From: Candidatus Sulfomarinibacteraceae bacterium
Lineage (GTDB): Bacteria; Acidobacteriota; Thermoanaerobaculia; Thermoanaerobaculales; Sulfomarinibacteraceae
Assembly (NCBI GenBank): GCA_963715955.1
Contig: CAVQSQ010000012.1
Coordinates: 211,050 to 275,049, forward strand
Direction of reading: 5' to 3'
Length of the DNA stretch: 64,000 nt
Part shown: positions 384 through 63,784 of the stretch, one piece after another
How positions within the stretch are numbered: the stretch's first letter is position 1
Layout of the letters: each line of letters begins with the position of its first letter
Translations under genes and position numbers: made by a program
Notes under the pieces: model-generated
Databases searched by the model: none
Seen by the model: only the letters and a program-made list of their open reading frames with translations
What the model was told of the DNA's origin: nothing

Positions 384-388
384 ATCAG

Positions 389-765: not shown

Positions 766-775
766 ACGAATGAGC

Positions 776-8400: not shown

Positions 8401-8575
8401 ATGTGAATGCCTCTCGATATCGGTGGGACTCCACCAGCGGCAGAGGGTAGCAACGATTCCCGGCTTTCGAAAGACAAGGTGCGGCACGGCGACCGCCGCC
8501 TCGCACCACCCGCCCGCCCGTTTTTCCCCTTGTATTTCTGTTACGATACCGGAGGCGCCGCAACGGCGTCATCTC

Positions 8576-10793
8576 ATGTGGATGGGGGGTTCACAAATGC
8601 GCATCGTGCTATCGATTCTCCTTGTAATGCTACCGACCTTGATCGGCCACGCCGGCGAGGGCATGTGGCTGCCCGATCAGCTGCCGAAGCTCGGCGACCA
8701 ACTGGAGGCCGCGGGCCTCGACACACCACCCGAGGATTTTGCCGACCTCACCGGGCAGCCGATGGGGGCGATCGTGTCGCTCGGCGGTTGTTCGGCGTCG
8801 TTCGTTTCACCCCGAGGGCTGGTGGTGACCAACCACCACTGCGCCTACGGGACCATCCAGTACAACTCGACCGAGGACAAGAACCTGCTCACCGACGGTT
8901 TTCTGGCCGCCACCCCGGCCGATGAACTGGCGGCGGCGCCGGGATCGAGGATCTACGTGACGTTGGCCGTTGCAGACGTGACGGAAACGATCGCGTCGGC
9001 GGTGCCGGACGGCGCCGACGGATCCGCTCGTTTCGCGGCGATCGAAGAGGCCGAGAAGAAAGCTCATCGCTCAATGCGAGGAGACCCCCGGCCACCGCTG
9101 CAAGGTCGCTTCGTTCCACGGCGGCGCCGAGTACCGCCTCTACGACCAGCTCGAGATTCGCGACGTCCGTCTGGCCTACGCTCCGCCCTCTTCGATCGGC
9201 AAGTACGGCGGCGATATCGACAACTGGATGTGGCCCCGCCACACCGGAGATTTCTCGTTTCTGAGGGCGTGGGTGGGGCCTGACGGCCAACCCGCCGACC
9301 CCTCGCCGGACAACGTCCCGTTCCAACCGAAGCACTGGCTGCGGATCGGAACCGATGGCGTCGACACCGGTGATTTCGTGATGGTGGTCGGCTTTCCCGG
9401 CAGGACCAACCGCTACCGCCTGGCTTCGGAAGTGGCGGACGCGATCGAGTGGACCTACCCGCAGCGGGTCGCCAGCCGCCAGGAGAGCCTCGATATCATC
9501 GCCGCCGAGACCGCCGGCCGGCCCGATGCGGCCATCGCCTACGCGGCCACCGAGTCCTACCTCAACAACAGCCTCAAAAACGGCCAGGGCATGCTGGCAG
9601 GATTTGCGCACTCGAACTCGGTCGCCAGCAAACAGGCTCTCGAGGCCGAGTTCGCGGCCTGGATCGCCGCCGATGCCGAACGCCAGGCTGCCTGGGGCGG
9701 CGCTCTCGAGGAGGTCGAGGCCATCCTCGAGGAGCAACGGGCCCACCGCGCGCGCGACCAGGAGCTCTCGTCATTCAACTACAACCAACTGGTGTCGGCC
9801 TCGTGGATGGCCTACCGCCTCGCCCGCGAACGCGAAAAGCCCGATGCCGACCGCAAACCCGGCTACCAGGACCGCGACACGGACCGCATCAAGGCCCGGA
9901 TCAAGCGCTCGGCGCGAAGCTTCGACGCCCAGGTCGACATGGCCCTGATGCAGGACACCCTCGAAGACTACGCGGCGCTGCCGGAGTCGGAGCGACTGGT
10001 GGTCCTCGACGAGTGGTTCGGTCTCGGCGGCGACGTGCCGGCCTCGGAGTCCATCGCGTCCACCCTTCACCGCATGTACATGGCCACCGACCTCACCGAC
10101 CCCGAGGCCCGGATGGCGCTGCTCGATGCGGACCGCGCCACGTTGGAAGCCAGTGAAGACCCCTTCGTGGAGCTGGCCGTCGCCATGTATGACACCAAAC
10201 TCGCCCTGGAGGCCGAGGAGGAGATGCTCGACGGGCAGCTCCTCGAGGCGCGACCGCGGTACATGGAGGCGCTGCTGGCGTTCCAGGCCGACCGGGGCGT
10301 CGAGATCTACGCGGACGCCAACAGCACCTTGCGGGTGACCTTCGGCAACGTTCAGGGTTATGTGCCGCAGGACGCGGTGATCTACCTCCCCTTCACCACC
10401 GCCGAGGGCGTCGCGGCCAAGGCCACCGGCAAAGAGCCCTTCGACGCCCCGCAGGCCCTGCTCGAAGCGGTGGCCGAACGCGACTTCGGGCCCTACGCCT
10501 CCGACTCCATCAGAACCCTTCCGGTGAACTTCCTCTCCGACGTCGACACCACCGGCGGCAATTCCGGGTCGGCCACCATCGACAGCCAGGGCCGTCTGGT
10601 CGGGCTGCTCTTCGACGGCAACTGGGAGAGCATGATCGCGGACTGGGATTTCCTGCCCGAGGTGACGCGGTCCATCCACGTCGACGTCCGCTACGTCCTG
10701 TGGGTGATGGACCGCATCGATCACGCCTGGAATCTGTTGCAGGAGATGGGGGTCGAACCCGCCTTCAGGCCGACGGAGGGCGCCACCGACTAG
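8576..10793 (+). CDS. S46 family dipeptidyl-peptidase (DPP7/DPP11-like); split by a 1-nt frame break near 9059-9061
   Basis: GMWLPDQLP...GCSASFVSPRGLVVTNHHCA in frame 2. Frame 3 continues LIAQCEETPGHRCKVASFHGGAEYRLYDQLEIRDVRLAYAPPSSIGKYGGDIDNWMWPRHTGDFSF...GGNSGS. A signal peptide is present, and MRIVLS at 8597 is an alternative start. Confidence 0.85.
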
Positions 10794-10995: not shown

Positions 10996-11028
10996 CCAGC
11001 GCCGCAGAGCACCGCACCCTTTTCATGC

Positions 11029-11300
11029 CGACCGAGGGTGTGCAACACCTCTCTTCTCTCTGTCATCCCGACCGAGGGTGCGCAACACCTCTCTTCTCTC
11101 TGTCATCCCGACCGAGGGTGCGCAACACCTGCAACACCTCTCTTCTCTCTGTCATCCCGACCGAGGGAGCGCAACACCTCTCTTCTCTCTGTCATCCCGA
11201 CCGAGGGAGCGCAACACCTCTCTTCTCTCTGTCATCCCGACCGAGGGAGCGCAACACCTCTCTTCTCTCTGTCATCCCGACCGAGGGAGCGCAGCGACCG
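11029..11300. repeat. 40-bp minisatellite, about 6 copies (unit CGACCGAGGG(T/A)GCGCAACACCTCTCTTCTCTCTGTCATCC)
   Basis: Head-to-tail copies can be read directly. One copy carries a 9-bp internal duplication (GCAACACCT). There are no unique spacers. Confidence 0.9.
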
Positions 11301-11395
11301 AGCGGAGGGATCTGGGCCGCACTTCGCGGATCGGCGCTATCTGGAATCGACGCCCTGAGCGAGCACAGCAAGTCGAAGAGATCCCTCCGCTACGG

Positions 11396-11512
11396 CCCTG
11401 CGGGCCTTCGGTCGGGATGACAGGAATAGGAAGACCCTGCGGGCCTTCGGTCGGGATGACAGGAATAGGAAGACCCTGCGGGCCTTCGGTCGGGACGACA
11501 GGAAAAGGGCGC
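11396..11512. repeat. 39-bp minisatellite, 3 copies, carrying the inverted core of the 11029-11300 array
   Basis: Unit CCCTGCGGGCCTTCGGTCGGGATGACAGGAATAGGAAGA. The core CCTTCGGTCGGGATGAC is the reverse complement of GTCATCCCGACCGAGGG from the left array. Confidence 0.9.
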
Positions 11513-11567
11513 TCCTCTGTTCGAGATTCGTTCGCGGATACTCGTCGCGTGCGGCGGAGGTGCCGGA

Positions 11568-11622
11568 GACGTTCAACGTTCCAACGTTCCAACGTTCCAA
11601 CGTTTGAACGTTGCGACGTTGG
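11568..11622. repeat. 8-bp AACGTT-containing microsatellite ((C)CAACGTT, about 6 copies)
   Basis: Sequence gttcaacgttccaacgttccaacgttccaacgtttgaacgttgcgacgttgg. A shorter copy lies at 17129-17160. Confidence 0.8.
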
Positions 11623-11665
11623 ATACAACGTCGCGGTGGTGCCGGATTGCGCGTATGGTGGGCGG

Positions 11666-12586
11666 GTGAGCCGCGAAACCCGCCTCGGCCTTCTCTACGC
11701 CGCCAGCGCTTTTCTGATCTGGGGTCTGACTCCGGTCTACTGGAAGCTGCTGGTGCAGGTCCCGGCTGCGGAGATTCTCGCCCACCGGATCGTGTGGGGA
11801 CTGGTCGTGGTCGCCGGATGGATGAGTCTTCGCGGTCGCTGGCCCGAGCTCGCGGCCGGAGTCAGACAGCCGCGGACGGTGGCGGCTCTGGCTGCGTCAA
11901 CGGTGTTCATCGCCGTCAACTGGGGCCTCTTCGTGTGGGCCGTCAACAACGACCGGGTGCTCGCCACCTCGCTGGGTTACTACATCAATCCGCTGGTCAA
12001 CGTCGTGCTCGGCCTCGTGGTGCTCGGCGAACGGCTCAACCGGCGCCAGTGGATCGCGGTCTCGCTGGCCGCGGCCGCCGTCACCATCCTGACGATCGCC
12101 CAGGGTCGCCTGCCGTGGATCTCGCTGGTACTGGCTTTCTCGTTCGCCCTCTACGGTCTGCTCCGAAAGACGGTTCGGGTCGATGCGGTGGTCGGTCTCT
12201 CCTTCGAGACCATGGCCCTGGCGCCCATCGCCGCAGCTTTCCTGCTGTACCAGAAAGCTCGCGGAGAGGCGGCCTTCGGCAGCCAGACTGTGGGGATCGA
12301 CGTGCTGCTGGTGGCTGCCGGTGCGGTCACGGTTGTCCCCCTCATCCTCTTCACCCTCGGCGTGCGCCGGCTCCCTCTCTCGACGGCGGGTCTGATGCAG
12401 TACATCGCTCCGACGTGCACATTCATACTCGCCGTGTTTCTCTACAACGAGACCTTCAGCGCCGCCCACGCCGTCAGCTTCATCCTCATCTGGACTGCGC
12501 TCGGAATCTACACCTTCGATCTCCGGCAGCGGTTGCGCGATCGCCCGCGATCGACAACCGTCGCCGATCCTCCCGTCCGCGCCTGA
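11666..12586 (+). CDS. rarD: EamA/DMT transporter RarD
   Basis: GLLYAASAFLIWGLTPVYWKLL...SLGYYINPLVNVVLG...LYGLLRK matches the RarD pattern. GTG start at 11666. The N-terminal part of the 502-aa track ORF is a translation of the minisatellites. Confidence 0.85.
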   Translation: MSRETRLGLLYAASAFLIWGLTPVYWKLLVQVPAAEILAHRIVWGLVVVAGWMSLRGRWPELAAGVRQPRTVAALAASTVFIAVNWGLFVWAVNNDRVLATSLGYYINPLVNVVLGLVVLGERLNRRQWIAVSLAAAAVTILTIAQGRLPWISLVLAFSFALYGLLRKTVRVDAVVGLSFETMALAPIAAAFLLYQKARGEAAFGSQTVGIDVLLVAAGAVTVVPLILFTLGVRRLPLSTAGLMQYIAPTCTFILAVFLYNETFSAAHAVSFILIWTALGIYTFDLRQRLRDRPRSTTVADPPVRA

Positions 12587-12959: not shown

Positions 12960-13140
12960 TCAGCCTCTTGCAAAATCACCCGAAGTGAAAAGAATCGCGG
13001 CATGATGACCCTGAGAAGGGAGGGGATAAACCCCTCCCCTACGGCTGTTATGGACGGCATCCGTTCCCACAACCGATTCTGAACACCGTAGGGGCGGGGT
13101 TTATCCCCGCCCGCTCATGTCGAATTCTGCAAGAGGCTCA
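12960..13140 (+). repeat. MITE-like element, copy 1 of 3 (TIR GAGCCTCTTGCA; two internal GTAG-headed hairpins)
   Basis: Ends TCAGCCTCTTGCAAAA ... TGCAAGAGGCTCA. Internal hairpins GGGAGGGGATAAACCCCTCCCCTAC and GTAGGGGCGGGGTTTATCCCCGCCC. About 85-90 percent identical by eye to 52971-53151. Confidence 0.85.
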
Positions 13141-16859: not shown

Positions 16860-17085
16860 ATGTGAGCCGCGGAGTGGCGATAGAGAATAGCCTGGGGCGT
16901 GAGCCCCGGGGTTTTCGGGTTCTCTATTGAACCGAGCCCCGGAGGGGCGACAGATCAAGGCCGCGATGGAGTTTGTCCGTGTCGATGTTGAACACCTGTC
17001 GCCGCTCCGCGGCTTGGAAAATTTTTTTCCCATGTTCCTGGGGCTCACGCCCCAGGCTACAGCCTGTCGCTCCTTCGGAGCTCGC
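16860..17085. repeat. composite of short GC-rich hairpin modules (family shared with 55385-55625)
   Basis: Modules GAGCC(S)CGGAG(K)GGCGA(C/T)A at 16864 and 16934, with their complements at 16997 and 17065. CCTGGGGCGTGAGCCCCGG at 16891, with its complement at 17038. Confidence 0.8.
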
Positions 17086-17154
17086 GTCCAGCAATCCTCA
17101 GACCCCACGTCTTTCTGGATGGGCCGTACTTTCAACGTTTCAACGTTCCAACGT

Positions 17155-18507
17155 TTACCAGAAGATCCGCCAGGTGACGAGCCACTCGTTGGGTTCGAGA
17201 GTGGACCCGTCCTGCAGTTCGGCCTTGTTGAAGCTGTATTCGACGGTGATGTCGGAGGAACGGACGATCCCGATCCGCAGACCCACGTCGAGCTTCTGCC
17301 AGTCCCAGTACATCGAGGGCGTGATGAACGGGTCCCACACCCAGAAATCGTTGTCGATCTGCGAGTAGCGCACGGCCGGACGCAACCAGGTGAAGACCGG
17401 TGTGTCCCAGGCCGCAAAGAGCGCCGGTATCGGGATGTGAAACGCCGATTCGATCTCGAAGCCCTGGCGCTCGAGGGACGCGATGTCCTGTTTCACGAAC
17501 TGGGCAAAGCCCACCCAGCGGCCGAGCCGCCAGTCGACGTTGAGACCGGCCTCCCACTTCTCGTCGCCTTCGAATGGCAACGGCAACCCGGCTCCCCGCA
17601 ACAGCTCGAGGTCTCCCTGGTAGAAGGTGCCCTCGATCTCCGGTGCATCCTCCAGCGTCCGCGAGTAGTACCAGGCCATCACGTCGACCGACTTCTTGCC
17701 CTCGTCGTTGGCCCACCGCCACCCGAGGCCGCCACCCAGCTCGACCTCGCCGTCGAGACTGAAGTTCTTCGGCCGCGCATCGTACAGAATCGGGAACCCC
17801 GAGTTGTAGGCGGGATCCACGTCGCCCGGGACCCTGTCGAATGTCCCGTTGTCTCCGGCGAGAGCGTTCGGGTCGCGCATGAAGAGGGGCCCGGCGATCC
17901 CGTACTGGCCCCGGAAATAGAGGTTCCCCCCGAGGTTGACACCGAGCTGGATCTGCGGGATCTCGAAACGGTTGACCGCGGTGCCCCACAGCCCGTAACT
18001 CTCGAGGTGACGGACGATCTGTTTGGCGAAGCGGGGCGCCTTACCAGCCTCGACGTACCACGCCCACGGTTCGAGCTTTCTGTGCTGGCGGTCCACCTGA
18101 CCGTAGCGCAGCCAGAACTCCCGAACGAAGACCTCGTCATCGATCGACGAGGGATTTCGGTTGTAGAGGTCGAGGACGTGCACCAGGACCCGCCCGCTGA
18201 ATTTCTCGCTGAACCTGACGTCCAAGCCCAGCTCCACATCCGACATCTCGAAGTGGGACCCGGGATCGACGGTCCGCAGGTAGACGGCGTCGTCCCCCGC
18301 CTCCCAGAACTCCGGCGGAAACGGCACGTTCAGTCTGTGTTCGACGAACGTCGACTGGCGGAAGTTGAAATTCATCTCTCCGAAGAAGGTGAATCCCGTC
18401 TTCTCCTGGGCGTCGGCAGGCACAGCGGACAGACCCGCCAGGAGGACGAGGAGCCCTACGGAGAACCTCGTTACACGCGTCGCCGGAACGGACGTTTGCT
18501 CGGTCAT
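17155..18507 (-). CDS. outer-membrane beta-barrel protein (porin-like, uncharacterised)
   Basis: Signal peptide (...LSAVPADAQE). Alternating amphipathic strands rich in aromatic residues. C-terminal ...LVTWRIFW ends in an aromatic residue, typical of OMP C-termini. Confidence 0.7.
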   Translation of the reverse strand: MTEQTSVPATRVTRFSVGLLVLLAGLSAVPADAQEKTGFTFFGEMNFNFRQSTFVEHRLNVPFPPEFWEAGDDAVYLRTVDPGSHFEMSDVELGLDVRFSEKFSGRVLVHVLDLYNRNPSSIDDEVFVREFWLRYGQVDRQHRKLEPWAWYVEAGKAPRFAKQIVRHLESYGLWGTAVNRFEIPQIQLGVNLGGNLYFRGQYGIAGPLFMRDPNALAGDNGTFDRVPGDVDPAYNSGFPILYDARPKNFSLDGEVELGGGLGWRWANDEGKKSVDVMAWYYSRTLEDAPEIEGTFYQGDLELLRGAGLPLPFEGDEKWEAGLNVDWRLGRWVGFAQFVKQDIASLERQGFEIESAFHIPIPALFAAWDTPVFTWLRPAVRYSQIDNDFWVWDPFITPSMYWDWQKLDVGLRIGIVRSSDITVEYSFNKAELQDGSTLEPNEWLVTWRIFW

Positions 18508-38260: not shown

Positions 38261-38285
38261 GAAGGTGGGCCGGTGCCCACCCTTC
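38261..38285. repeat. solitary REP-like hairpin related to the 389-765 family
   Basis: GAAGGTGGGC-CGGT-GCCCACCCTTC. Confidence 0.5.
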
Positions 38286-38373: not shown

Positions 38374-39261
38374 ATGGAAATCCGCCACCTCCGCCTGGTT
38401 CATACCCTCGCTACGGAGGGCACGCTGACCGCCGCCGGTCAGCGGCTCTATCTCTCCCAGTCGGCCTTGAGCCACCAACTCAAAGAGATCGAAAACGAGT
38501 TCGGGGTCAAGCTGTTTCGACGGTTCAGGAAGCGGATGGTGCTCACTCCGGCCGGCCAGAGATTCCTCGACAGCGCCGATGTTGTTCTCAACGAGATCGA
38601 AAAGGTGCGCGACGACATCTCGCGTCTGTCATCCGGGGAGACGGGGACTCTCCGCATCGCCGCCTGCCGCTCACTGGGTTTCAGGTGGCTCCCCGGCGTC
38701 GTCAACTCCTTCAAGAGCGCCTACCCGGATGTCGAATTGTCCATCGACCCACTGTGGGACCACGACCCGACCAACCGTGTGCTCACCGGAGCCGTCGACG
38801 TCGCCATCACGAATGCGAAGATCGACGACCGGGGGCTCGTCTATCTGAAGCTCTTTGACGACGAACTGGTGGCGGTCGTCCGTTCCGACCACCGGTGGGC
38901 CTGCAAAGACCACGTCGCGGCGCGCCTGCTGGCCGATGAGAACCTGGTCACGTTCGACTTCCCGGTGAACGGAACGGATATCAGGTCGACCACTCTCGCC
39001 CCTGCCGGAGTCACTCCGAAATCCGTCGTGACTCTGCCCACCATCGAGGCCATCGTCGACATGGTCAGAGGCGGCGCCGGCGTCGCCGTCCTCAACTCGT
39101 GGCCGGCCCGCCCGTTCCTGGCCGACGGCGGGTTGCGGATTGTTCGGCTCGGTCGCAGGGGCATTCAGCGATCGTGGTACGCCGCGGTGACCGAAGACGA
39201 CCAGAAACCTCCCTACATCGCCCGTTTCATCGGGCTCCTCGCCCACCAGGGGAAAAGCTAG
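38374..39261 (+). CDS. LysR family transcriptional regulator
   Basis: MEIRHLRLVHTLATEGTLTAAGQRLYLSQSALSHQLKEIE HTH region plus a LysR substrate-binding domain. Divergent from the S9-dcp operon. Confidence 0.9.
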   Translation: MEIRHLRLVHTLATEGTLTAAGQRLYLSQSALSHQLKEIENEFGVKLFRRFRKRMVLTPAGQRFLDSADVVLNEIEKVRDDISRLSSGETGTLRIAACRSLGFRWLPGVVNSFKSAYPDVELSIDPLWDHDPTNRVLTGAVDVAITNAKIDDRGLVYLKLFDDELVAVVRSDHRWACKDHVAARLLADENLVTFDFPVNGTDIRSTTLAPAGVTPKSVVTLPTIEAIVDMVRGGAGVAVLNSWPARPFLADGGLRIVRLGRRGIQRSWYAAVTEDDQKPPYIARFIGLLAHQGKS

Positions 39262-39284
39262 GAAAGGGAGAAAAGGGGCGACCG

Positions 39285-39322
39285 CAGATTTCGAATTTCG
39301 AATTTCGAATTTCGAATTTTCC
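39285..39322. repeat. AT-rich 7-bp microsatellite (ATTTCGA, about 4.5 copies)
   Basis: Sequence agatttcgaatttcgaatttcgaatttcgaatttt. A related array lies at 63033-63070. Confidence 0.85.
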
Positions 39323-39401
39323 ATCGCGGCTTCCCACCGCACACGAATGTTCGAGTGCTCACACCGCTCGAGAGTGCGGATACGAGTCGTGTGCGGATAC
39401 C

Positions 39402-39510
39402 GGTCGCGTGCGGCGGAGGTGCCACTTTCAACATTGTTGGACACGCGAACATCCAAGTCGGCGGGATCCGATGGGGGCCAACAATGTTGAGGGTGGCTCC
39501 TCCCGGGAAG
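39402..39510. repeat. long-hairpin MITE-like element, copy 1 of 3
   Basis: Arms GGAGGTGCCACTTTCAACATTGTTGG and CCAACAATGTTGAGGGTGGCTCCTCC (about 26 nt) around a variable centre of about 35 nt. Conserved left flank GCGTGCGGCGG. Other copies lie at 54564-54668 and 63284-63388. Confidence 0.85.
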
Positions 39511-39610
39511 CGAGAACGGAAAGCCGTGCCAGCTCGGATCCTGGTAAACGGCGTCCTTCAAGCCCATAGCCCAAGCCCCAGCTCAACGCCCCAGGCCTCA
39601 CTGCCTCACT

Positions 39611-39641: not shown

Positions 39642-39666
39642 ATCCGGTCGTTTCGGGGCAACCGGA

Positions 39667-42628
39667 TCAGAAGGAAAGGCGAAGTCCGAGACGAACGGTG
39701 GTCGGGTTCTGCCACATGCTGGCCGTGTTCCAGCCCGGGTTCGTCGGCGGGCGGTCGGCTGAACTTGCGGTTATCGGGGCGAAGTCCACGTTGGTGTCCC
39801 AATCGAGAACGTTGTAGGTCTGGCCGTCAACCGCCGTGGTGTACTGGATGTCGCGCTGCGTCTCGCCCTGGTTGTTGAAGACGCTGAAGATATCGAGCAG
39901 CACGTTGAGTTCGAGGGCCGAACCGAATTTGATGCGGATAACCGAAATGGAGGTCGGCTTCCCACTGTGCGTCGACGCGACCGAAGGCACCGCGTTCGGA
40001 GAGGTAGAACTCCCAGTTGTTGTAGTCAACGGAATAGCCGTAAGCGGTGATCGGCGTGCCGTCGCGGTAGAAAGCCGAGAGACCCGCACTGAGCCCGAAG
40101 TCGAAACGGTAGATGCCGTCGAACTTGATCTGGACCGGAATATCGTTGGAGAGCGGGCCGTAGTTGTTGACCGCGAAGTCCGCGTAGTCATAGGCCGAGT
40201 TCAGGTTCGGATCGAGTTGCCCCGTCGAGGCCTGGAAGAGACCGTCATAGTTGCCCTCGAGGCTCGACCACAACATCGACGCGATGAACTGGTAGTTGTC
40301 GGAGAAACGCTTCTGGAGCGTCACCTCGACGCCCTCGAATTTGCGCTCGGGGGTCAGGATCTCTCGCGGATCGGCGTAGTTGTAACCCCACGCAGTCGCC
40401 ATGGTGAAGGTCTCGGTCATCTCACCGTAGCTCGGATTGCCGATGTAGTAGTCGCCGTCGAGGGTCAGGGCATCTTCGATCACCCGTTTGAGGTCGCGGG
40501 CGATGTATTTGGCACCCACCGCCCAGTTGGGTGCGAACTCGTACTCCGCGCCAATGATGGCCTCTTCGAGGTACTGGCCCTTGACGCCCGGATCGACCCT
40601 CGAGAACCCACCTCCGAGGACCCTGGAACCTCTGACCGAAAGGTCGGCCGCCACGTCTTCGGGGTTGTCGGAGAGATTGTAGGACCACAGCGAGATCTCG
40701 CCGCCGAAGGCGCGGATCACGATGTCCATGGGGATCGTCTCGTAGAAATATCCCCAGTGGCCGTAGAGCTTGGATTGGCCGTTGCCCAGAAAGTCCCACA
40801 CGAAACCGATTCGCGGAGCGATGTTGTCGTCGATATCCGCCGAAACCTCGCGATCGGCGTTGTACAGCTTCTGCTGCCCGAACCGGACGCCCAGGTTGAG
40901 GGACAGATTGGATCCGACCTGCCAGGTGTCCTGCAGGAAGAACGCCATATTGTCGGAGATCGTGTCGACGAGCTGCGGCGCCAGGATATCGGCCGTGGTC
41001 GCGGTCTCCGGATCGAGGTTGGGGTCGCTGACAAAGAAACGATGACGGAAGTAGTACGGCTGTCCCTGGCAGTCACGGGTATCGGAGTCGATGCAGTCAA
41101 AGCGGTAGATCCGCTGGCCGGTGCCGCCGTTCCAGACCTCGGAGTTGATCGAAATATCTTCATACTCGTAGCCGAACTTGAACTCGTGGGACCCCGCAAG
41201 ATTGGCAACGAACCACGACATGTCGGCGTTGTACTGTTCCCGACCGAACTCGTTGTTGTTGAAGTTCCCGAACCCGGCCTGTCGTTGGTGGGCATTGCCG
41301 TCGGCATCCCATCCCCACACCGTTGTTCCGTCGCCGAGCGGATCCGTAAAATCAATGTAGCCCACCGTCTCCGCACCGGGACCGCCCTGCAGGAACTTTT
41401 CGTCGTGGGCCGCCACCCGAGCGGTCAGAACGATGTTCTGGCCCAAGACGCCATCGTAGTTTGCGGAGTAGTTCGTGCCCCCGGTCTCGACCAACCCGGT
41501 GAAGTGGAGGGTCGTAGCGGCCAGCGATTGACCGGCGATGACCCCGCTGTTTTCCGTGGGGTCGCCGAACACTGATCCCGCCAGCGAGTGGTTGGCGGCG
41601 ATACGCCAGGTCAGCTTGGCGGCCCAGAGATCGCCGACGGTCGACTGAGGGATCTGCTCGCCCCTGTAGGTGCCGCCCTCGATGATCGAGGAGAAGTCCT
41701 TGAGAACCTCGAGGTTGTTCTCGTTGTCCACCCGGTCGTAGGCGGCGAAGAACCACAACGTGTCCTTGAGAATGTAACCTCCGAGATCGAACCCGTAGTC
41801 AGACCGGGTGAACGAGGTCTGCTTGAAGGAGGCGTTGACCGCGCCTACGTCCGGCGCGGCTTTGAGGGAAGCCTGCAATGAGTCCGCGTCGTAGTAGCCG
41901 AAGACATCGCCGTGGAACTCGTTGCCGCCCGACTTGGTCACCACGTTGATGACCGAACCGGTTGCCCGCCCGAACTCGGCGTTGTACGAACCGGTCTTGA
42001 CCTGGACCTCGTCGATGAACTCGAAGTTCAGCTGGGTGCCTTGCGTCCCGAACTCGATTCCGGTGGTGTTGGCGCCGTCGATGTAATAGGAATTTTCTGC
42101 GCCGGTCGAGCCATAGAAAGTCTGACCGGAGGCATCGGCCTGGGCCCCCGGAGTGACATTCGCAACTGCCGTGTAGTTGCGCCCGGTCGGCAGGTCGTCG
42201 TAGAAGTCCGAGGACAGGTCGACACCGATTGTCGTGTCGGAGGTGTTGACCAACGGAGTCTCGGAGGTCACCACGACCTCGTCCGAGAAGGCCGGCGTCA
42301 TGATGGCGTCGACACGGGTCGTCGACCCCATGCTGACGCGCATTTTCTCCTGCGACCGTGCCTGAAAGCCCGAGAGATTGAAGTTGACCGCATACTCGCC
42401 CGGCGGCAACGCCAGAAAGCTGTAGGCCCCTTCGTCCCCGGTCACGGTGGCTTGCGGGCCCTGAAGCGCTGCCGAAACCAGGTTCACGGTGACACCTGGA
42501 AGCCCGACGCCGGACTCGTCGACCACATTGCCCCGGATCTCACCCCTGGTTGCCTGCGCGGAGGCCAGGCCAGCGGCAAGACAAACAGCCGCTAATACAA
42601 CGAGAATTCTTCCGAATAACTTCATCAT
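39667..42628 (-). CDS. TonB-dependent receptor-like outer-membrane protein with N-terminal carboxypeptidase-regulatory-like domain (Oar type); split by a 1-nt frame break near 39936-39937
   Basis: Signal peptide. GNVVDESGVGLPGVTVNL...GEYAVNFNLSGF (CarboxypepD_reg). Plug motifs (YYIDGANTTG, NVVTKSGGNEFHG). The C-terminal barrel end ...TVRLGLRLSF lies in the frame of track ORF 39667..40191. Confidence 0.85.
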
Positions 42629-43539: not shown

Positions 43540-43641
43540 CCTGCCGGGAGTGACGGGCAGGATGGGGCGGTGTGGCAATGGCCGACCGCCGTGCGGCCTG
43601 GCAATGAGGCCCAGGCTTCGGTAACCCCTCATTGCCCATTG

Positions 43642-44382
43642 TCATTGCCTCATTGCCTCACTGCCCATGCCATCGGAGGCCGCCCGTTCCACCGCATTCC
43701 CGGTGCGATACCCCATCCAGCCCATGATGGGGCCCATCAGAAAATAGACGAGGCCGGACAGGGCCGGGACCTGCGGCACCGAGACAGCGCCAGCAACACC
43801 GGGAACGACGCCGATGGCGACCGTCGCCAGGTGCCGCTGGAGCCGCCCCTTCGTCGCCGCCTTCTCGGCAGGGTTCAGGTGCAGCCGGTCGCGCAGCCGC
43901 CACGCCCGCCAATACATCACCGACAGGACGACGAAGATGCCGACGAAACCACCGCTGAAAAGCACCATCACAGTCGTTCCGCGGCTCATCTCCGAAACGC
44001 CGGGACTCCCAGCCAGCGGCGCCGTCACCAGGACCGAAGCCAGAAACTTCATCGGAAAGACGTAGAACACGATGAAGAAGAGCAGCACTCCGTTGAGCGC
44101 GACCGTCGTCGCGTCCTCGAAACCGTAGCGACGGTGGAAGAGGAAGTGCTCGTACCAGACCCAAAGCAGAAAGGCGAAGCACAGGATGAAGGCCGGAAAC
44201 TGCCAGAAGACGGCGACCAGGCCCTCGCCGGTCTTCGGCACCTCGAGAGCGACCACCAAGAGGGTCAACGAGAGTGCAAACACCGCGTCGGAAAGACCCT
44301 CGATGCGCGATACCTCACCGCCGCGCCACCGAAAATACCGCTCCTCACGGAGGCTTCTTGGCAGGAGTCCAGGTTCTACCAT
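43642..44382 (-). CDS. TMEM175 / DUF1211 family potassium channel
   Basis: RIEGLSDAVFALSLTLLV signature, repeated in the second half of a 6-TM protein. The start is the ATG at 44382. Confidence 0.8.
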   Translation of the reverse strand: MVEPGLLPRSLREERYFRWRGGEVSRIEGLSDAVFALSLTLLVVALEVPKTGEGLVAVFWQFPAFILCFAFLLWVWYEHFLFHRRYGFEDATTVALNGVLLFFIVFYVFPMKFLASVLVTAPLAGSPGVSEMSRGTTVMVLFSGGFVGIFVVLSVMYWRAWRLRDRLHLNPAEKAATKGRLQRHLATVAIGVVPGVAGAVSVPQVPALSGLVYFLMGPIMGWMGYRTGNAVERAASDGMGSEAMRQ

Positions 44383-52884: not shown

Positions 52885-52970
52885 GCGGAGAGGCCATGGG
52901 CTGTGGGCTGTGAGGTCAGCGCACAGATCCGGGTTCACTCGGACGACTGGAAACGGCCATGGCACATAGC

Positions 52971-53151
52971 TCAGCCTTTTGCAAAAACACCCGCAGTGAA
53001 AAGAACCGCGGCACGATGACACAGAGAAGGGAGGGGATAAACCCCTCCCCTACGGCTTTTATGGACGGCATCCGTTGTTACAGTCGATTCTGAACACCGT
53101 AGGGGCGGGGTTTATCCCCGCCCACTCATGTCGAGTTTTACAAGAGGCTCA
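52971..53151 (+). repeat. MITE-like element, copy 2 of 3 (same family as 12960-13140)
   Basis: Collinear with copy 1, including both GTAG hairpins and the TIRs TCAGCCTTTTGCAAAA ... ACAAGAGGCTCAG. Confidence 0.85.
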
Positions 53152-53250
53152 GCACATAGCTCATGGCTCATGGCTCAACGCCCCGCGATCGGGAACAACT
53201 CGAACGTTCTCGCTGTTGCCGACAACGATCAGCACTCCGGGAGTCACCCC

Positions 53251-54535: not shown

Positions 54536-54563
54536 CCTCTGAAGCAGCGGAAACGCCTCATGT

Positions 54564-54668
54564 CGATGTGCGGCGGAGGTGCCATTTTCAACATTGTTGG
54601 ACGAACGAACACTCCTGTCGGCACGGCGACGCGGGCCAACAATGTTGAAGGTGGCTCCTCTCGGGAAC
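54564..54668. repeat. long-hairpin MITE-like element, copy 2 of 3
   Basis: GTGCGGCGGAGGTGCCATTTTCAACATTGTTGG ... CCAACAATGTTGAAGGTGGCTCCTCTCGGGAA. Confidence 0.85.
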
Positions 54669-54785
54669 CGCGATCAAAACGTCGGGTGCTCACCGGGGTC
54701 AGGAAACGGTGACCGGCACGGAATGAACACCACACTGATGGTGTAGAATCTATTCGAACCCGTCCACGCCGGAAGGATTTCCGGC

Positions 54786-55346: not shown

Positions 55347-55384
55347 CCCAACTTGGAGGTAAGGCTTATCGAGAAACTCGTGAG

Positions 55385-55625
55385 ATATGCAGTCTCGAGA
55401 CCGAGCCCCGCAGGGGCGACAAAATGTAGCCCGGGGCGCAAGCCCCGGGTCCGCGGCAGAAAGTGAGTCCAAGCCGCGGAGCGGCGACAGACAGCCGCCT
55501 CCCACAGCCGCGGCTCACCGCGCAGCCAGAACCTGTCGCCCCTCTGGGGCTCTTCATTCTTGGTTCCGTGGTTGCCGGGGCTCACGCCCCGGCCTATTCT
55601 CTACCGCCGCTCCGCGGCTTCCTCT
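55385..55625. repeat. composite GC-rich hairpin-module repeat (same family as 16860-17085)
   Basis: GAGCCCCGCAGGGGCGACA (55403), AGCCGCGGAGCGGCGACA (55472), and their complements at about 55533 and 55603. GCCCGGGGCGCAAGCCCCGGG pairs with GCCGGGGCTCACGCCCCGGC. Confidence 0.8.
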
Positions 55626-55655
55626 GTCCAAGCATGAAATGAGGAACGACTCAGG

Positions 55656-55855
55656 TGAGCCTCTTGCAAAATTCAACCTGGGCGGGGATAAACCCCGCCC
55701 CTACGGCATTCAGGAACTCAGACGGAATTTAGACAAAACTTTCCCTTTGAGAGACTTAGCTTCTCAAACGTCGTAGGGGAGGGGTTTATCCCCTCCCATT
55801 TCGGTGTCTCTTTGGTGCGGTTCCATCCACTGCGGGTGTTTTTGCAAGAGGCTCA
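55656..55855 (-). repeat. MITE-like element, copy 3 of 3 (inverted, more diverged)
   Basis: TGAGCCTCTTGCAAAA ... GGCGGGGATAAACCCCGCCCCTAC ... GTAGGGGAGGGGTTTATCCCCTCCC ... TTTTGCAAGAGGCTCAG. Confidence 0.8.
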
Positions 55856-55902
55856 GGTGTCGCCGAGCGCGTCGAGGTTCTTCGATGAAACCTCAGAACG
55901 CA

Positions 55903-59460: not shown

Positions 59461-59712
59461 CACATGGCAGCCGGGACGGCTGCCCCACAAACCCTTTCAG
59501 AAACGGCTTGCTGGGCAGACACATGGCACGCGGGACGCGTGCCCCACAAACCGTTTCCGGGCCGTTTTGTGGGGCAGACACATGGCAGCGCGGGACGGCT
59601 GCCCCACAAACCCTTTCAGAAACGGCTTGCTGGGCAGACACATGGCACGCGGGACGCGTGCCCCACAAACCGTTTCCGGGCCGTTTTGTGGGGCGGCCGT
59701 CCCGGCTGCCAT
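59461..59712. repeat. about 119-bp tandem duplication (2.1 copies) built from GGCAGCC-GGGAC-GGCTGCC / GGCACGC-GGGAC-GCGTGCC hairpins
   Basis: Units start at 59461 and 59579. Related single hairpins lie at about 63148, 63246 and 63446. Confidence 0.9.
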
Positions 59713-62992: not shown

Positions 62993-63032
62993 GAAATCCC
63001 CCCGGTCGATGTGCAGCGGAAAGAATAGCAAG

Positions 63033-63070
63033 GAAAAATTTTGAATTATGAATTTTGAATTTTGAATTCC
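63033..63070. repeat. AT-rich 7-8-bp microsatellite (TTTTGAAT-like) just upstream of the BNR-protein gene
   Basis: Sequence aaaaattttgaattatgaattttgaattttgaattcc, 40-80 nt upstream of the minus-strand ATG at 62992. Confidence 0.8.
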
Positions 63071-63139
63071 GGTCGGCATCCAAACAACGTGAGTCAGATG
63101 GGAACGCAGTGAGGGTTCCTCGGGGGTGGTGAAATCGGT

Positions 63140-63500
63140 GCGAGCTCAGGCAGCCGGGACGGCTGCCCCATCCGGCTCCGCCCGGGGCTTGCGTGACAAG
63201 CACTGACGGTGCTGTGTCGGCGTAGCGCGAAGCGCGAAGACGCATGGGGCAGGCGTCCCGCCTGCCATCTAGCGTGGGGAACGGGTCGCGTGCGGCGGAG
63301 GTGCCATTTTCAACATTGTTGGACTCAAGATCCTCCCCGTCGGCAAAACGACGCGGGCCAACAATGTTGAAGGTGGCTCCTCCCGGGAAGAACGTGCTGA
63401 TACGAACCGCGTGCCCCACAGCCGGGCCCGCCTTGATGATCGTTTGTGGGGCAGCCGTCCCGGCTGCCATCTAGCGTGGGGAACGGGTCGCGTGCGGCGG
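63140..63500. repeat. patchwork of nested repeat modules (GGCAGCC hairpins, long-hairpin element copy 3 at 63284-63388, direct repeat CATCTAGCGTGGGGAACGGGTCGCGTGCGGCGG twice)
   Basis: The 33-nt string at 63265-63297 recurs at 63468-63500. Hairpins lie at 63148-63176, 63246-63268 and 63446-63470. Confidence 0.8.
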
Positions 63501-63784
63501 GGCGCCCGGCCCTTGTGACCACCGTCACGATCCGCTGAACCGCGGCGCTGCGACAGTCCTATGGAATGTCGATGGATGGATCAGCGGTTAGTCCCGTATA
63601 CGGGGTAGAACAACGCACGCCGGTGAACGGCGCCGATGAATTCACACTCTACGCTCGGAGCCGGAGAACATGACCGCATACCCCGCACCAGCCGCACCCA
63701 TTCCCACGCCACCAGAGACCCGGCGGACGCCCGCCCCCACCCACCCTGATCGAGGCGACACCACGGGGCCGGTCCCGGCGCAAG

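What the first reader, a model, noticed from the sequence alone, without database searches (positions are those of the whole stretch)
63030..63540. Intergenic space is saturated with at least seven unrelated short palindromic repeat families
Almost every non-coding gap longer than about 100 bp consists of repeats rather than unique sequence. Seven families can be distinguished. (1) REP doublets at 389-765. (2) 40-bp and 39-bp minisatellites at 11029-11512. (3) AACGTT octamer repeats at 11568-11622 and 17129-17160. (4) GAGCCTCTTGCA-TIR MITEs at 12960, 52971 and 55656. (5) GAGCCSCGGAGGGGCGACA / CCTGGGGCGTGAGCCCCGG hairpin composites at 16860 and 55385. (6) Hairpin elements with 26-nt arms at 39402, 54564 and 63284. 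(7) GGCAGCC-GGGAC-GGCTGCC hairpins at 59461-59712 and 63148-63470, plus AT-rich heptamer arrays. The 500 bp at 63030-63540 contains four of these families nested together and has no credible ORF. Translated, these repeats produce the long spurious low-complexity ORFs in the track, for example 385..1230 and the N-terminus of 11078..12586.
Basis: seen in the sequence. Interest (0 to 1): 0.6.

Follow-up and report, generated by a model that had tools for sequence, protein, structure and literature searches.

The report
REP-type repeat mosaics between genes
The long gaps between genes in this acidobacterial genome are filled with small hairpin-forming mobile DNA repeats whose transposase gene sits at the edge of the window. 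These repeats are joined in a fixed order with an undescribed 105-base hairpin and with short tandem arrays that begin right at stop codons.

Summary
All seven repeat families are real, lie at the stated coordinates and are far beyond chance. They are dispersed in related genomes (Acidobacteriota, Thermoanaerobaculales, Ca. Sulfomarinibacteraceae), not confined to this window. Two claims are overstated. Only 11 of 25 gaps of 100 nt or more carry repeats. The families are also not unrelated.

Families 1, 4, 5 and 7 share one architecture: GT[AG]G followed by a 7-8 bp G-rich hairpin. This is the classical REP element. Window 1-383 encodes a REP-associated tyrosine transposase (RAYT), with the family-1 array starting 5 nt after its stop codon. 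Family 4 has its own RAYT in metagenome contigs. Family 5 is Rfam Acido-Lenti-1.

Family 6 is a strand-specific, strongly covarying 27-bp hairpin with no Rfam match and no transposase found nearby. There are at least 99 copies in about 570 kb of related loci.

The AT-rich heptamer arrays are not palindromes. They are polar, about 32 nt long, and often abut stop codons. Whenever one lies within 300 nt of a family-6 copy (56 of 102), it lies 5' of it.

The focal segment 63070-63513 is one such mosaic cassette. The closest orthologous locus has 35 nt in its place.

Verdict: a BIME-like REP mosaic with two apparently undescribed modules.

The parts
1..383 (+). 3' two-thirds of a RAYT (REP-associated tyrosine transposase) gene. 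It has the HUH motif LPDHLHSVW and the catalytic-Tyr motif YTHFNPVRHGY, with one apparent frameshift near position 100.
   Evidence: tblastn with E. coli TnpA_REP (PDB 4ER8) gives E=1e-24. NCBIfam NF047646 scores 127 bits against a cutoff of 80. The fragment is 79% identical to the full-length 183-aa ortholog P0122.
388..768 (.). Family 1: array of five GTAG-tagged REPs (GTAGGGTGGGCCTCGGCCCACC) arranged as inverted doublets 26 nt apart. A 162-nt unit is repeated 2.3 times. The array starts 5 nt after the RAYT stop codon.
   Evidence: (D4, D5, I10). The same REPs flank RAYT orthologs on both sides in L112, L113 and L234.
38264..38285 (-). Solo, degenerate family-1 REP (GAAGGGTGGGCACCGGCCCACC).
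   Evidence: (D5, I21).
11023..11512 (.). Family 2: a long inverted repeat with arms at 11269-11313 and 11379-11423. Its left arm is amplified as a 40-nt unit x6.6 (11023-11293) and its right arm as a 39-nt unit x2.9 (11396-11508).
   Evidence: (D1, D10, I7). The arm motif TCGGTCGGGATGACAG recurs next to family-6 units in other genomes.
11525..11620 (+). GTGCGG leader (GTCGCGTGCGGCGGAGGTGCC) followed by an AACGTT octamer array x6.6 (family 3).
   Evidence: (D9, D12). The same leader-plus-octamer junction is present in L085.
12960..13140 (+). Family 4 copy 1: a 181-nt MITE-like unit with 16-nt terminal inverted repeats (TSAGCCTCTTGCAAAA). It encloses two inverted GTAG REPs (GTAGGGGMGGGGTTTATCCCCKCCC).
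   Evidence: (D2, D11, D16).
16865..17082 (.). Family 5 composite: two inverted Acido-Lenti-1 units (16865-16910 on the minus strand, 17037-17082 on the plus strand) flanking two inverted small hairpins. It is part of a roughly 375-nt unit, 16784-17156.
   Evidence: Rfam RF01687 scores 41.8 and 55.4 bits against a gathering score of 37. An 80%-identical copy sits in an unrelated context in L085.
17128..17156 (.). AACGTT octamer array x3.4 (family 3). It abuts the stop codon of the minus-strand gene 17155..18507.
   Evidence: (D9).
39248..39532 (+). Polar cassette after the LysR gene stop (39261). In order: a purine 9-mer array at 39248-39277, a heptamer array (ATTTCGA) x4.6 at 39288-39319, a CCCACC/GAGTGCTCA module, 17-nt GTGCGGATAC repeats at 39374-39413, and a family-6 hairpin at 39400-39532.
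   Evidence: (123 bits).
43627..43665 (.). Octamer array (CCTCATTG) x5.2 lying between the stop codons of two convergent ORFs.
   Evidence: Related CCTCAATG and TGAGGCAG arrays occur in the loci.
52971..53151 (+). Family 4 copy 2, 91% identical to copy 1. It is flanked by a 9-bp direct repeat, GCACATAGC. The orthologous gap in L110 is only 7 nt.
54560..54690 (+). Family-6 hairpin, about 25 nt after the stop codon of the metallo-beta-lactamase-fold gene.
   Evidence: 124 bits. The orthologous gap in L110 holds octamer and heptamer arrays instead.
55404..55619 (.). Family 5 composite with the same inverted architecture as 16865-17082.
   Evidence: (51.3 and 46.9 bits). The orthologous gap in L110 is 11 nt.
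55656..55856 (-). Family 4 copy 3, inverted relative to copies 1 and 2, with a longer spacer between its REPs.
   Evidence: (I1, I3, I8, I18).
59461..59712 (.). Family 7 array: GTGG-tagged REPs (GTGGGGCASSCGTCCCGSSTGCC) with a 59/119-nt period and four copies. It starts about 12 nt after the true stop codon of the sortilin-like gene (TAG at 59725-59727 on the minus strand).
   Evidence: (D7, D17, I4). The array itself is not present at the orthologous sites in L110 and L111, which carry shorter, different gap sequences.
63037..63068 (+). Heptamer array (AATTTTG) x4.6, 45 nt upstream of the sortilin-like gene start. Its position is conserved in L110 and L111, but the unit sequence differs.
63146..63268 (.). 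Family-7 REP doublet: inverted copies at 63146-63171 (minus) and 63244-63268 (plus). It folds as one long hairpin of -45.8 kcal/mol (z = -5.2).
63282..63412 (+). Family-6 hairpin with its GTGCGG leader.
   Evidence: (129 bits on the plus strand, 47.7 antisense).
63446..63500 (+). Third family-7 REP plus a truncated leader. This is the second copy of the 54-nt direct repeat (96% identical to 63245-63298), that is, 1.27 copies of a 202-nt tandem unit.
   Evidence: (D18, D19).

Best explanation
The large intergenic gaps of this Thermoanaerobaculales (Ca. Sulfomarinibacteraceae-like) genome are colonised by lineage-specific, non-coding, hairpin-forming mobile DNA. This DNA is assembled into mosaic cassettes comparable to the BIMEs of E. 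coli.

FOUR FAMILIES ARE REPs
- Families 1, 4, 5 and 7 share the form GT[AG]G plus a 7-8 bp G-rich stem plus a 2-5 nt loop. They occur mostly as inverted doublets (REPINs).
- Such elements are cut and re-inserted as single-stranded DNA by a RAYT, an HUH/Y1 transposase that recognises the folded hairpin and its 5' tag.
- Shown: a RAYT gene lies at window 1-383, with family-1 REPs starting 5 nt after it. RAYT orthologs are flanked on both sides by matching, co-varying REPs. Family 4 has its own RAYT in metagenome contigs.
- Inferred: the mobilisation itself, and the existence of cognate RAYTs for families 5 and 7.

OTHER MODULES ARE JOINED TO THE REPs IN A RECURRENT 5'-to-3' ORDER
1. Short-period arrays, often starting at a stop codon: U-rich heptamers about 32 nt long, AACGTT octamers, and purine 8/9-mers.
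2. A CCCACC...GAGTGCTCA...GGGTGGG hairpin.
3. Optionally, a family-7 REP.
4. GTGCGG leader repeats.
5. Family 6, a 27-bp strand-specific hairpin that shows compensatory evolution.

HOW THE CASSETTES CHANGE
- Cassettes grow by local tandem duplication. The 202-nt, 162-nt, 119-nt and 40-nt units are examples.
- They turn over quickly between species.
- The focal 63070-63513 is one such cassette. It sits in the divergent gap between a sortilin-like gene and a glycosyltransferase gene, and the closest ortholog lacks it.
For: THE REP CLASS
- Among 1131 perfect hairpins, the 4-mer 5' of the stem is GTAG in 41 cases (2.2 expected) and GTGG in 34 (7.6 expected). These are the top two 4-mers. The stems fall into exactly the classes of families 7, 1, 4 and 5, with compensatory variants.

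RAYT
- Searches identify the gene.
- REPs flank RAYT orthologs on both sides in L112, L113, L234 and L236, with stems that co-vary with the protein.
- Family-4 REPs flank a distinct RAYT in inverted orientation in L156, L181, L198, L199 and L204.
- GTGG as a variant of the GTAG tag, several REP families each with its own RAYT, and REPs lying close to the 3' ends of ORFs are all described in PMC3733652.

MOBILITY AND TURNOVER
- The window has 444 nt, 367 nt and 556 nt where orthologous loci have 35 nt, 7 nt and 11 nt.
- The same gap holds different modules in the window and in L110.
- An 80%-identical 375-nt family-5 unit lies in an unrelated context in L085.

DISPERSAL.

MOSAIC ORDER
- Every heptamer array within 300 nt of a family-6 copy lies 5' of it, 56 to 0.
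- The same neighbouring modules recur across species.

FAMILY-6 STRUCTURE
- 97.6% of cells are paired. There are 166 double-change cells against 48.8 +/- 9.7 in shuffles (0 of 500 shuffles reach the observed value). Controls with partners slid by 1-3 columns give covariation scores of 0.03-0.07 against 0.257.
Against: - No transposase was found near any of about 100 family-6 copies, and no target-site duplication was seen for that family. How it spreads is therefore unknown.
- Family 6 carries many U-G wobble pairs and shows UA-UG-CG substitution paths. These are more typical of selection on RNA than on DNA.
- No RAYT was found for families 5 or 7.
- The window's RAYT reading frame is interrupted. 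It may be inactive, or the interruption may be an assembly error.
- Only one of three family-4 copies has a flanking direct repeat.
- The tight abutment of heptamer arrays to stop codons is not predicted by selfish insertion alone.
- The whole genome of the window was not available, so copy numbers for this genome are extrapolated from relatives.
Confidence: 0.7

Rival explanations
1. The cassettes are mainly functional RNA rather than selfish DNA. The U-rich heptamer array that begins at the stop codon, and the structured modules behind it (including family 6), would form a lineage-wide 3'-end or post-transcriptional system. Possible roles are an unstructured landing pad for Rho, RNase E or an RNA-binding protein, followed by protective hairpins. 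Alternatively, the cassettes are independently transcribed small RNAs.
For: - 44 of 120 heptamer arrays lie within 10 nt of a facing stop codon, against 6.9 +/- 2.4 expected.
- 48 of 56 stop-proximal arrays have their T-rich strand in the sense of that gene.
- Array length is constrained: 67 of 143 arrays are 32-33 nt.
- 116 of 143 units contain R-N-W-U-U on the U-rich strand, against 70 on the other strand. I recall this as the RNase E consensus; that identification is from memory and was not checked.
- Family 6 is strand-specific, scoring 85-135 bits forward against 22-50 antisense, with about 11% G-U pairs.
- Arrays always lie 5' of family 6.
- An array is conserved in position upstream of the sortilin-like gene in three species.
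Against: - Family 6 shows no orientation bias relative to flanking genes. In co-directional gaps it is sense 15 times and antisense 14 times.
- Arrays in co-directional gaps are sense 29 and antisense 29.
- Elements are present or absent, or swapped, at orthologous sites. This argues against a fixed role for any given gene.
- No promoter-like or terminator-like signals were found in the cassettes.
- No expression data are available.
- My gene calls come from a crude codon-score caller.
Confidence: 0.25
2. The hairpins are transcription terminators or mRNA 3' stabilisers that arose independently at each gene and resemble each other only through convergence.
For: - Many elements lie just downstream of stop codons. 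Examples are the family-7 array 12 nt after a stop, family 6 about 25 nt after the lactamase-fold gene, and octamers abutting a stop.
- E. coli REPs are known to stabilise upstream mRNA (established knowledge; see also PMC3733652).
Against: - None of the hairpins is followed by a T-run, yet the genome uses canonical terminators, for example 39612-39643.
- Copies share 80-95% identity across more than 100 nt, including loops and flanks, in different species and contexts. This indicates descent by copying, not convergence.
- Several elements sit in divergent promoter gaps, including the focal region.
Confidence: 0.04
3. The repeats are local duplications or assembly artefacts confined to this contig.
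For: - Several arrays are local tandem duplications, with 162-, 119-, 40-, 39- and 202-nt units.
- The window shows apparent frameshifts in three genes, which suggests a long-read assembly with indel errors.
Against: - Every family except family 2 has many copies in independent assemblies from other samples and species.
- Family 2's arm motif also recurs elsewhere.
Confidence: 0.01

Closest known systems
REP / REPIN-RAYT systems (E. coli REP with TnpA_REP; Pseudomonas REPINs; the GTAG-tagged REP superfamily of Di Nocera et al. 2013, PMC3733652)
   Same: - The form is a 5' GTAG (or GTGG) tag followed by a short G-rich palindrome.
- Inverted doublets occur.
- The elements are intergenic and close to the 3' ends of ORFs.
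- REPs flank a single-copy RAYT gene.
- Several REP classes coexist in one genome, each with its own RAYT.
   Different: - The host phylum differs. PMC3733652 lists GTAG repeats in Proteobacteria, Cyanobacteria, Chloroflexi and the PVC group, and reports only TIR-flanked Y1 transposases in the acidobacterium Koribacter.
- Here at least four classes coexist.
- They are embedded in larger fixed-order cassettes.
BIMEs (bacterial interspersed mosaic elements) of E. coli
   Same: REPs are combined with other short conserved motifs in a regular order, and tandem amplification of the composite unit occurs within a gap. This comparison is from established knowledge and was not tested here.
   Different: - The modules are entirely different.
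- The cassettes here are polar, start with short-period arrays and include a 105-nt hairpin.
- No IHF or gyrase site information is available.
Rfam RF01687 Acido-Lenti-1 RNA motif (Weinberg et al. 2010, PMC2864571)
   Same: The four family-5 units score 41.8-55.4 bits against a gathering score of 37. The phylum also matches.
   Different: - Rfam files it as a candidate sRNA of unknown function.
- Here it appears as inverted pairs inside a dispersed unit of about 218-375 nt.
- Read on the opposite strand, both the window copies and the published seed sequences show GTAG plus hairpin, which is the REP signature.
- No RAYT link has been shown yet.
Hairpin MITEs with long terminal inverted repeats (Neisseria Correia elements, ERIC; also the TIR repeats mobilised by TIRYT transposases, PMC3733652)
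   Same: - Family 6 is about 105 nt long with roughly 26-nt complementary arms.
- It has many copies and is intergenic.
- It is present or absent at orthologous sites.
- Family 4 has 16-nt terminal inverted repeats.
   Different: - Family 6 shows no target-site duplication.
- It has a conserved asymmetric leader and trailer, strand-specific wobble pairing and an invariant CATTGT/ACAATG core.
- It occurs in head-to-tail arrays with a period of about 120 nt.
- No transposase partner was found.
Tandem heptanucleotide repeats of other bacteria: cyanobacterial STRR (from memory) and the TAACTGA direct repeats of Beggiatoaceae (PMC4679880)
   Same: They are abundant, intergenic, lineage-specific tandem heptamers with 2-6 copies per set. 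A post-transcriptional role has been suspected for them.
   Different: - TAACTGA repeats lie just upstream of start codons and have a single unit sequence.
- Here many different units are used: ATTTCGG, AATTTTG, AGTTTTG and GAATTMG.
- Length is constrained to about 32 nt.
- The arrays abut stop codons in the sense orientation and head a cassette.

Membership tests
REP-RAYT system (family 1) | A RAYT gene, that is, an HUH/Y1 transposase of the REP-associated subfamily | tested here: met
   Window 1-383. NCBIfam NF047646 equivalog scores 127.1 bits against a cutoff of 80. It is 44-57% identical to E. coli TnpA_REP (4ER8), and the HUH and Tyr motifs are present. The gene is truncated by the window edge and has one frameshift.
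REP-RAYT system (family 1) | A short imperfect palindrome with a conserved GTAG tetranucleotide at one end | tested here: met
   GTAGGGTGGGCCTCGGCCCACC occurs five times in the window. GTAG is enriched 19-fold 5' of hairpins in the lineage.
REP-RAYT system (family 1) | REPs flank the RAYT gene on both sides | tested here: met
   Only the 3' side is visible in the window (388-768). Both sides are seen in the ortholog loci L112, L113, L234 and L236, and the REP stems co-vary with the RAYT.
REP-RAYT system (family 1) | Tens to hundreds of dispersed intergenic copies per genome | tested here: inconclusive
   One solo copy lies in the window away from the RAYT, at 38264. There are 23 perfect copies in the window plus about 570 kb of related loci. 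No whole genome was available for a count.
REP-RAYT system (family 1) | The RAYT binds and cleaves its REP as single-stranded DNA | not testable with these tools
   This requires biochemistry.
REP-RAYT system (family 4) | A GTAG-tagged palindrome that flanks a cognate RAYT | tested here: met
   Six GTAGGGGMGGGGTTTATCCCCKCCC copies lie in the window. In five metagenome contigs a distinct RAYT is bracketed by inverted copies of the same REP. No such RAYT lies inside the window.
REP class (family 7) | A GTAG-type tag plus palindrome, compensatory stem variants, and a cognate RAYT | tested here: inconclusive
   The GTGG tag and three compensatory stem variants (GGCAGCC, GGCACGC, GGCAGGC) are seen in 31 copies. 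GTGG is accepted as a GTAG variant in PMC3733652. No RAYT was found next to any copy.
Rfam RF01687 Acido-Lenti-1 (family 5) | The covariance model scores above the curated gathering score | tested here: met
   Four hits score 41.8-55.4 bits against a gathering score of 37.
MITE (family 4, 181-nt unit) | Terminal inverted repeats, no coding capacity, small size, target-site duplication | tested here: inconclusive
   16-nt terminal inverted repeats and sharp boundaries are present in all three copies. The element is absent from two orthologous sites in L110. A 9-bp flanking direct repeat is present in only one of three copies.
Intrinsic (Rho-independent) terminator | A GC-rich hairpin immediately followed by a T/U run | tested here: not met
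   Family 6 is followed by CGGGAAG and family 7 by ATCTAG or CACAAAC. The scan flags none of them but does flag a canonical terminator at 39612-39643.
Known RNA family (family 6, family 7) | A match to any Rfam 15 model | tested here: not met
   Nothing reaches gathering score in the whole window except RF01687. Nothing relevant appears at E<=1 in 62990-63680 or 39240-39830.
Structured single-strand element (family 6) | A conserved secondary structure supported by compensatory changes beyond controls | tested here: met
   There are 27 pairs. Seven have double changes, giving 166 double-change cells against 48.8 +/- 9.7 in shuffles (0 of 500). Slid controls give covariation scores at or below 0.071 against 0.257. 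The 78 sequences were selected with an exact 17-mer in the 5' arm, so the invariance there is due to ascertainment.

The most novel reading that the evidence does not exclude
The repeats may not be a random accumulation of selfish DNA. They may instead form a lineage-wide, polar 'gene-end cassette'. In this reading, a U-rich heptamer array of fixed length (about 32 nt), with interchangeable units such as ATTTCGG, AATTTTG, AGTTTTG and GAATTMG, starts at or within a few bases of the stop codon. It heads an ordered series of structured modules that ends in a covarying 105-nt hairpin unknown to Rfam. This would be a new kind of post-transcriptional device for 3'-end formation or processing, or for protein loading, in Thermoanaerobaculales. 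REP and RAYT activity would merely shuffle the modules.
Probability: 0.25. Interest if true: 0.8.

Novelty: new variant of a known kind. Interest (0 to 1): 0.55.

Why it matters
- It extends REP-RAYT systems to an uncultured acidobacterial lineage, with at least four REP classes coexisting in one genome.
- It offers a concrete re-reading of an orphan Rfam family, Acido-Lenti-1, as a REP-type element.
- It yields two modules that appear undescribed. One is a highly covarying, strand-specific hairpin present at about one copy per 6 kb in the sampled loci. The other is the set of fixed-length heptamer arrays locked to stop codons. Both can be tested directly with metatranscriptomes from sediments rich in Sulfomarinibacteraceae.
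- In practice, these repeats generate long spurious ORFs and break short-read assemblies. Most contigs carrying a RAYT ortholog are only 1-2 kb long.

Tried and rejected
- An exact-protein look-up of a window gene found nothing. The best ortholog of the sortilin-like protein is 89% identical, so the window's own genome is not in the collections. No locus overlaps the window.
- Pfam gave no hit for the RAYT fragment. NCBIfam did.
- I looked for a transposase partner of family 6 and found none. An IS3-like insertion interrupts one copy in L031 but is unrelated. Genes lying between inverted family-6 copies are housekeeping genes: an ABC-F protein and a ParA/NUBPL-type protein. tblastn with six RAYTs and my recalled IS608 TnpA sequence found nothing in the family-6 loci.
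- Linking family-6 orientation to the replication strand gave only a weak result, 63 to 39 against local GC skew, and the copies are not independent.
- I rejected the idea that heptamer arrays provide stop codons in all three frames. The most common units, ATTTCGG and GAATTCG, contain no stop codon in any frame (checked by hand against the sequences).
- I rejected the idea that the arrays are parts of bidirectional terminators. In both directions the U-rich array precedes the GC hairpin rather than following it.
- I rejected attC, CRISPR, ribozyme and riboswitch readings. There is no Rfam match, no attC R-box pattern, and the elements are not separated by spacers or cassettes.
- My GC3-periodicity segmentation was too noisy to define gaps. 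I used codon-score gene calls with manual additions instead.
Full report
1. CONTEXT

The window is 62-68% G+C, with no tRNA genes. A scan of species-representative genomes for the family-6 leader GTGCGGCGGAGGTGCCA placed the true hits in Acidobacteriota MAGs. These are mostly 'Candidatus Sulfomarinibacteraceae' (Thermoanaerobaculales), plus ChS5.bin.55 and a Thermoanaerobaculales bin.

The window's own genome is not in any collection. The best ortholog of its sortilin-like protein is 89% identical, and no fetched locus overlaps the window.

Two syntenic loci were obtained: L111 (89% protein identity) and L110 (85%).

2. CHECK OF THE OBSERVATION

Repeat finding, TRF and motif searches reproduce all seven families at the stated coordinates.

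| Family | Copies in window | Expected in shuffles |
|---|---|---|
| 7 | 7 | 0 |
| 4 (REPs) | 6 | 0 |
| 5 | 4 | 0 |
| 1 | 6 | 0 |

The focal gap, 62993-63670, lies between a minus-strand sortilin-like gene (ATG at 62992) and a plus-strand glycosyltransferase gene starting at 63671. In order, it contains:
- a heptamer array at 63037-63068;
- an inverted pair of family-7 hairpins at 63146-63171 and 63244-63268, which fold together at -45.8 kcal/mol;
- a GTGCGG leader;
- a family-6 hairpin at 63282-63412 (129 bits);
- a trailer;
- a third family-7 hairpin with a truncated leader at 63446-63500.

The last segment is the second copy of a 54-nt direct repeat, which makes 1.27 copies of a 202-nt tandem unit (D18).

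Relative to L111, the window has 444 nt (63070-63513) where the ortholog has 35 nt. The flanks on both sides align. So the focal segment is non-coding and is an insertion or expansion.

The saturation claim is overstated. With codon-score gene calls plus manual additions, 25 gaps are 100 nt or longer. Eleven carry repeats (48-98% covered) and 14 carry none. Still, 39% of gap bases are repeat against 2.3% of coding bases.

3. THE FAMILIES ARE NOT UNRELATED: FOUR ARE REPs

Families 1, 4, 5 and 7 all have the form GT[AG]G plus a G-rich stem plus a short loop.

| Family | Tag | Stem | Loop | Stem |
|---|---|---|---|---|
| 1 | GTAG | GGTGGGCC | TC | GGCCCACC |
| 4 | GTAG | GGGCGGGG | TTTAT | CCCCGCCC |
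| 5 | GTAG | CCTGGGGC | GTGA | GCCCCAGG |
| 7 | GTGG | GGCAGCC | GTCCC | GGCTGCC |

I took a census of 1131 perfect hairpins in the window and the related loci. The tetranucleotide 5' of the stem is GTAG in 41 cases (2.2 expected) and GTGG in 34 (7.6 expected). These are the two commonest 4-mers. The tagged hairpins fall into exactly these four classes, with compensatory stem variants.

This is the signature of repetitive extragenic palindromes. The GTGG variant, the coexistence of several families each with its own transposase, and location close to the 3' ends of ORFs are all described by Di Nocera et al. (PMC3733652).

4. THE TRANSPOSASE

- tblastn with E. coli TnpA_REP gives E=1e-24. I verified my recalled query sequence against PDB 4ER8.
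- The HUH motif (LPDHLHSVW) and the catalytic tyrosine motif (YTHFNPVRHGY) are present.
- The frame-repaired fragment scores 127 bits on NCBIfam NF047646, against a cutoff of 80.
- There is one frameshift near position 100.

The family-1 REP array begins 5 nt after the stop codon.

Full-length 183-aa orthologs are flanked on both sides by the same REP in L112 and L234. In L113 and L236 they are flanked by co-varied REPs, GGTGGGGC..GCCCCACC and GGTGCGGC..GCCGCACC.

Family 4's exact 25-mer occurs in more than 120 metagenome contigs. In five of them, inverted copies bracket a different RAYT that is 27-30% identical to the family-1 type.

No RAYT was found for families 5 or 7.

5. FAMILY 5 IS RFAM ACIDO-LENTI-1

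Its four units exceed the gathering score. Weinberg et al. listed the motif as a probable sRNA of unknown function with 89 representatives.

In the window it forms two composites of about 218 nt with the same architecture. Each has two inverted units enclosing two inverted small hairpins.

The larger unit, 16784-17156, is 80% identical to a copy in a different gene context in L085.

On the strand opposite to the Rfam orientation, both the window copies and the published seed sequences read GTAG plus hairpin. I therefore suggest that Acido-Lenti-1 is a REP-type element. This is an inference, because no RAYT link was shown.

6. FAMILY 6

An alignment of 78 copies from eight genomes gives a 27-bp stem.
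- 97.6% of cells are paired.
- Seven pairs carry compensatory changes. Examples are UA 35 / CG 34, and AU 36 / GC 18 / CG 11 / UA 6.
- There are 166 double-change cells against 48.8 +/- 9.7 in shuffles (0 of 500).
- The covariation score is 0.257, against 0.071 or less when partners are slid by 1-3 columns.

The CATTGT/ACAATG core is nearly invariant. About 11% of cells are G-U pairs, so the fold is strand-specific. The covariance model scores 85-135 bits forward and 22-50 bits antisense.

There are three copies in the window, all on the plus strand, and about 100 strong copies in the roughly 570 kb of related DNA that was fetched. That sample was chosen for carrying the element.

Units also occur head to tail with a period of about 120 nt, and in a short form, GGAGGTGCCTGGCATCCTC.

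No Rfam family matches, even at E<=1. No transposase lies nearby. No T-run follows the hairpin.

Orientation relative to flanking genes is unbiased: 15 sense and 14 antisense in co-directional gaps. Orientation relative to GC skew is only weakly biased.

7. MOSAIC ORDER

The same neighbouring modules recur across species:
- a family-7 REP about 20 nt upstream of the leader;
- a CCCACC..GAGTGCTCA..GGGTGGG hairpin;
- 17-nt GTGCGGAWACG repeats;
- the arm motif of family 2;
- AACGTT octamers joined to the leader in the window (11525-11620) and in L085.

Family 2 is itself a long inverted repeat whose two arms have been tandemly amplified (I7).

8. TURNOVER

At orthologous sites in L110, three window segments are missing.
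- The family-4 copy at 52971: L110 has 7 nt between the genes, the window has 367 nt.
- The whole 556-nt gap 55347-55902: L110 has 11 nt.
- The family-7 array.

The gap after the lactamase-fold gene holds family 6 in the window. In L110 it holds octamer and heptamer arrays instead.

9. THE HEPTAMER ARRAYS

The arrays are not palindromes and behave differently from the other families.
- TRF finds 143 period-7 arrays in 632 kb of the lineage's DNA, one per 4.4 kb. Only 3 occur in about 230 kb from unrelated taxa.
- 67 of the 143 are 32-33 nt long.
- 44 of 120 lie within 10 nt of a facing stop codon, against 6.9 +/- 2.4 expected for random placement within the same gap.
- Of stop-proximal arrays, 48 of 56 have their T-rich strand in the gene's sense.
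- Every array within 300 nt of a family-6 copy lies 5' of it, 56 to 0.
- The array upstream of the sortilin-like gene is conserved in position in three species while its unit sequence differs.

I cannot explain these properties by insertion of selfish DNA alone. The rival RNA-level reading is given a probability of 0.25.

The closest precedent I found is the TAACTGA heptamer repeats of Beggiatoaceae. Those lie upstream of start codons (PMC4679880).

10. VERDICT

The repeats are a BIME-like mosaic of REP-type mobile elements. One cognate RAYT is visible in the window and another was found elsewhere. Two further modules, family 6 and the stop-codon-linked arrays, appear undescribed and have unknown function.

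Limits of this analysis:
- Gene calls in the loci come from a simple codon-score caller.
- The loci were selected for family 6.
- No whole genome and no expression data were available.

Noticed in passing
window 1-383: A truncated RAYT (REP-associated tyrosine transposase) gene lies at the very start of the window, directly upstream of the REP array. It carries one apparent frameshift near position 100.
   Followed up: yes
window 39288-39319 and 63037-63068; about 140 arrays in loci L001-L109: Period-7 tandem arrays with A/T-rich units are abundant in this lineage, about one per 4.4 kb. They are mostly 32-33 nt long. They abut stop codons with the T-rich strand in the gene's sense (44 of 120 within 10 nt against about 7 expected). 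They always lie 5' of family-6 hairpins.
   Followed up: partly
window 16865-17082 and 55404-55619; Rfam RF01687 seed sequences: Read on the opposite strand, the Rfam 'Acido-Lenti-1 RNA' motif has the REP signature of GTAG plus a hairpin, and it occurs as inverted pairs. It may be a REP-type mobile element rather than an sRNA.
   Followed up: partly
window ~100, ~9230-9283, ~59730-59800: Three genes show apparent frameshifts relative to their homologs. These are the RAYT, the S46 peptidase (the Pfam match begins in ORF 8270..9283, and a second long ORF, 9228..10793, follows in a different frame) and the 3' end of the sortilin-like gene. For the last, the true stop is TAG at 59725-59727 on the minus strand, but the open frame runs on to 59453 through the repeat array. 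This suggests indel errors in a long-read assembly, or pseudogenes.
   Followed up: partly
window 39612-39643 (minus strand): A canonical intrinsic terminator, GGGGGCCTTCGGGCCCCC followed by GTATTTTTTT, lies downstream of the 933-aa gene 39827..42628. The genome therefore uses ordinary terminators alongside the repeats.
   Followed up: no
window 52963-52971 and 53152-53160: The family-4 copy at 52971-53151 is flanked by a 9-bp direct repeat, GCACATAGC, which may be a target-site duplication. The other two copies have none.
   Followed up: partly
window 43627-43665: An octamer array, (CCTCATTG) x5.2, sits exactly between the stop codons of two convergent ORFs. Related CCTCAATG, TGAGGCAG and GCCTCACT arrays recur in the related loci.
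   Followed up: no
window 42599-42804: This is an unusually AT-rich gap (41% G+C in a 64% G+C window) with no detectable repeat. It lies upstream of the 933-aa minus-strand gene.
   Followed up: no
window 52255-52319 and 52639-52703: A 65-nt direct repeat, 89% identical, lies inside the FKBP-type isomerase gene. It most likely reflects two tandem FKBP domains rather than a mobile repeat.
   Followed up: no
L031 67-1200: One family-6 copy in the ChS5.bin.55 MAG is interrupted just after its 5' arm by a different sequence that includes a 289-aa minus-strand ORF. I took this to be an IS3-family transposase from reading the sequence; I did not check it with a family search.
   Followed up: partly
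L110 17455-17490, 17720-17760 and 17810-17845: The gap orthologous to window 54536-54785 carries two AACGTT octamer arrays, a purine-rich array and an (ATTTCGG) x4.6 array instead of family 6. The same gap is thus filled with different modules from the same set in two related species.
   Followed up: partly
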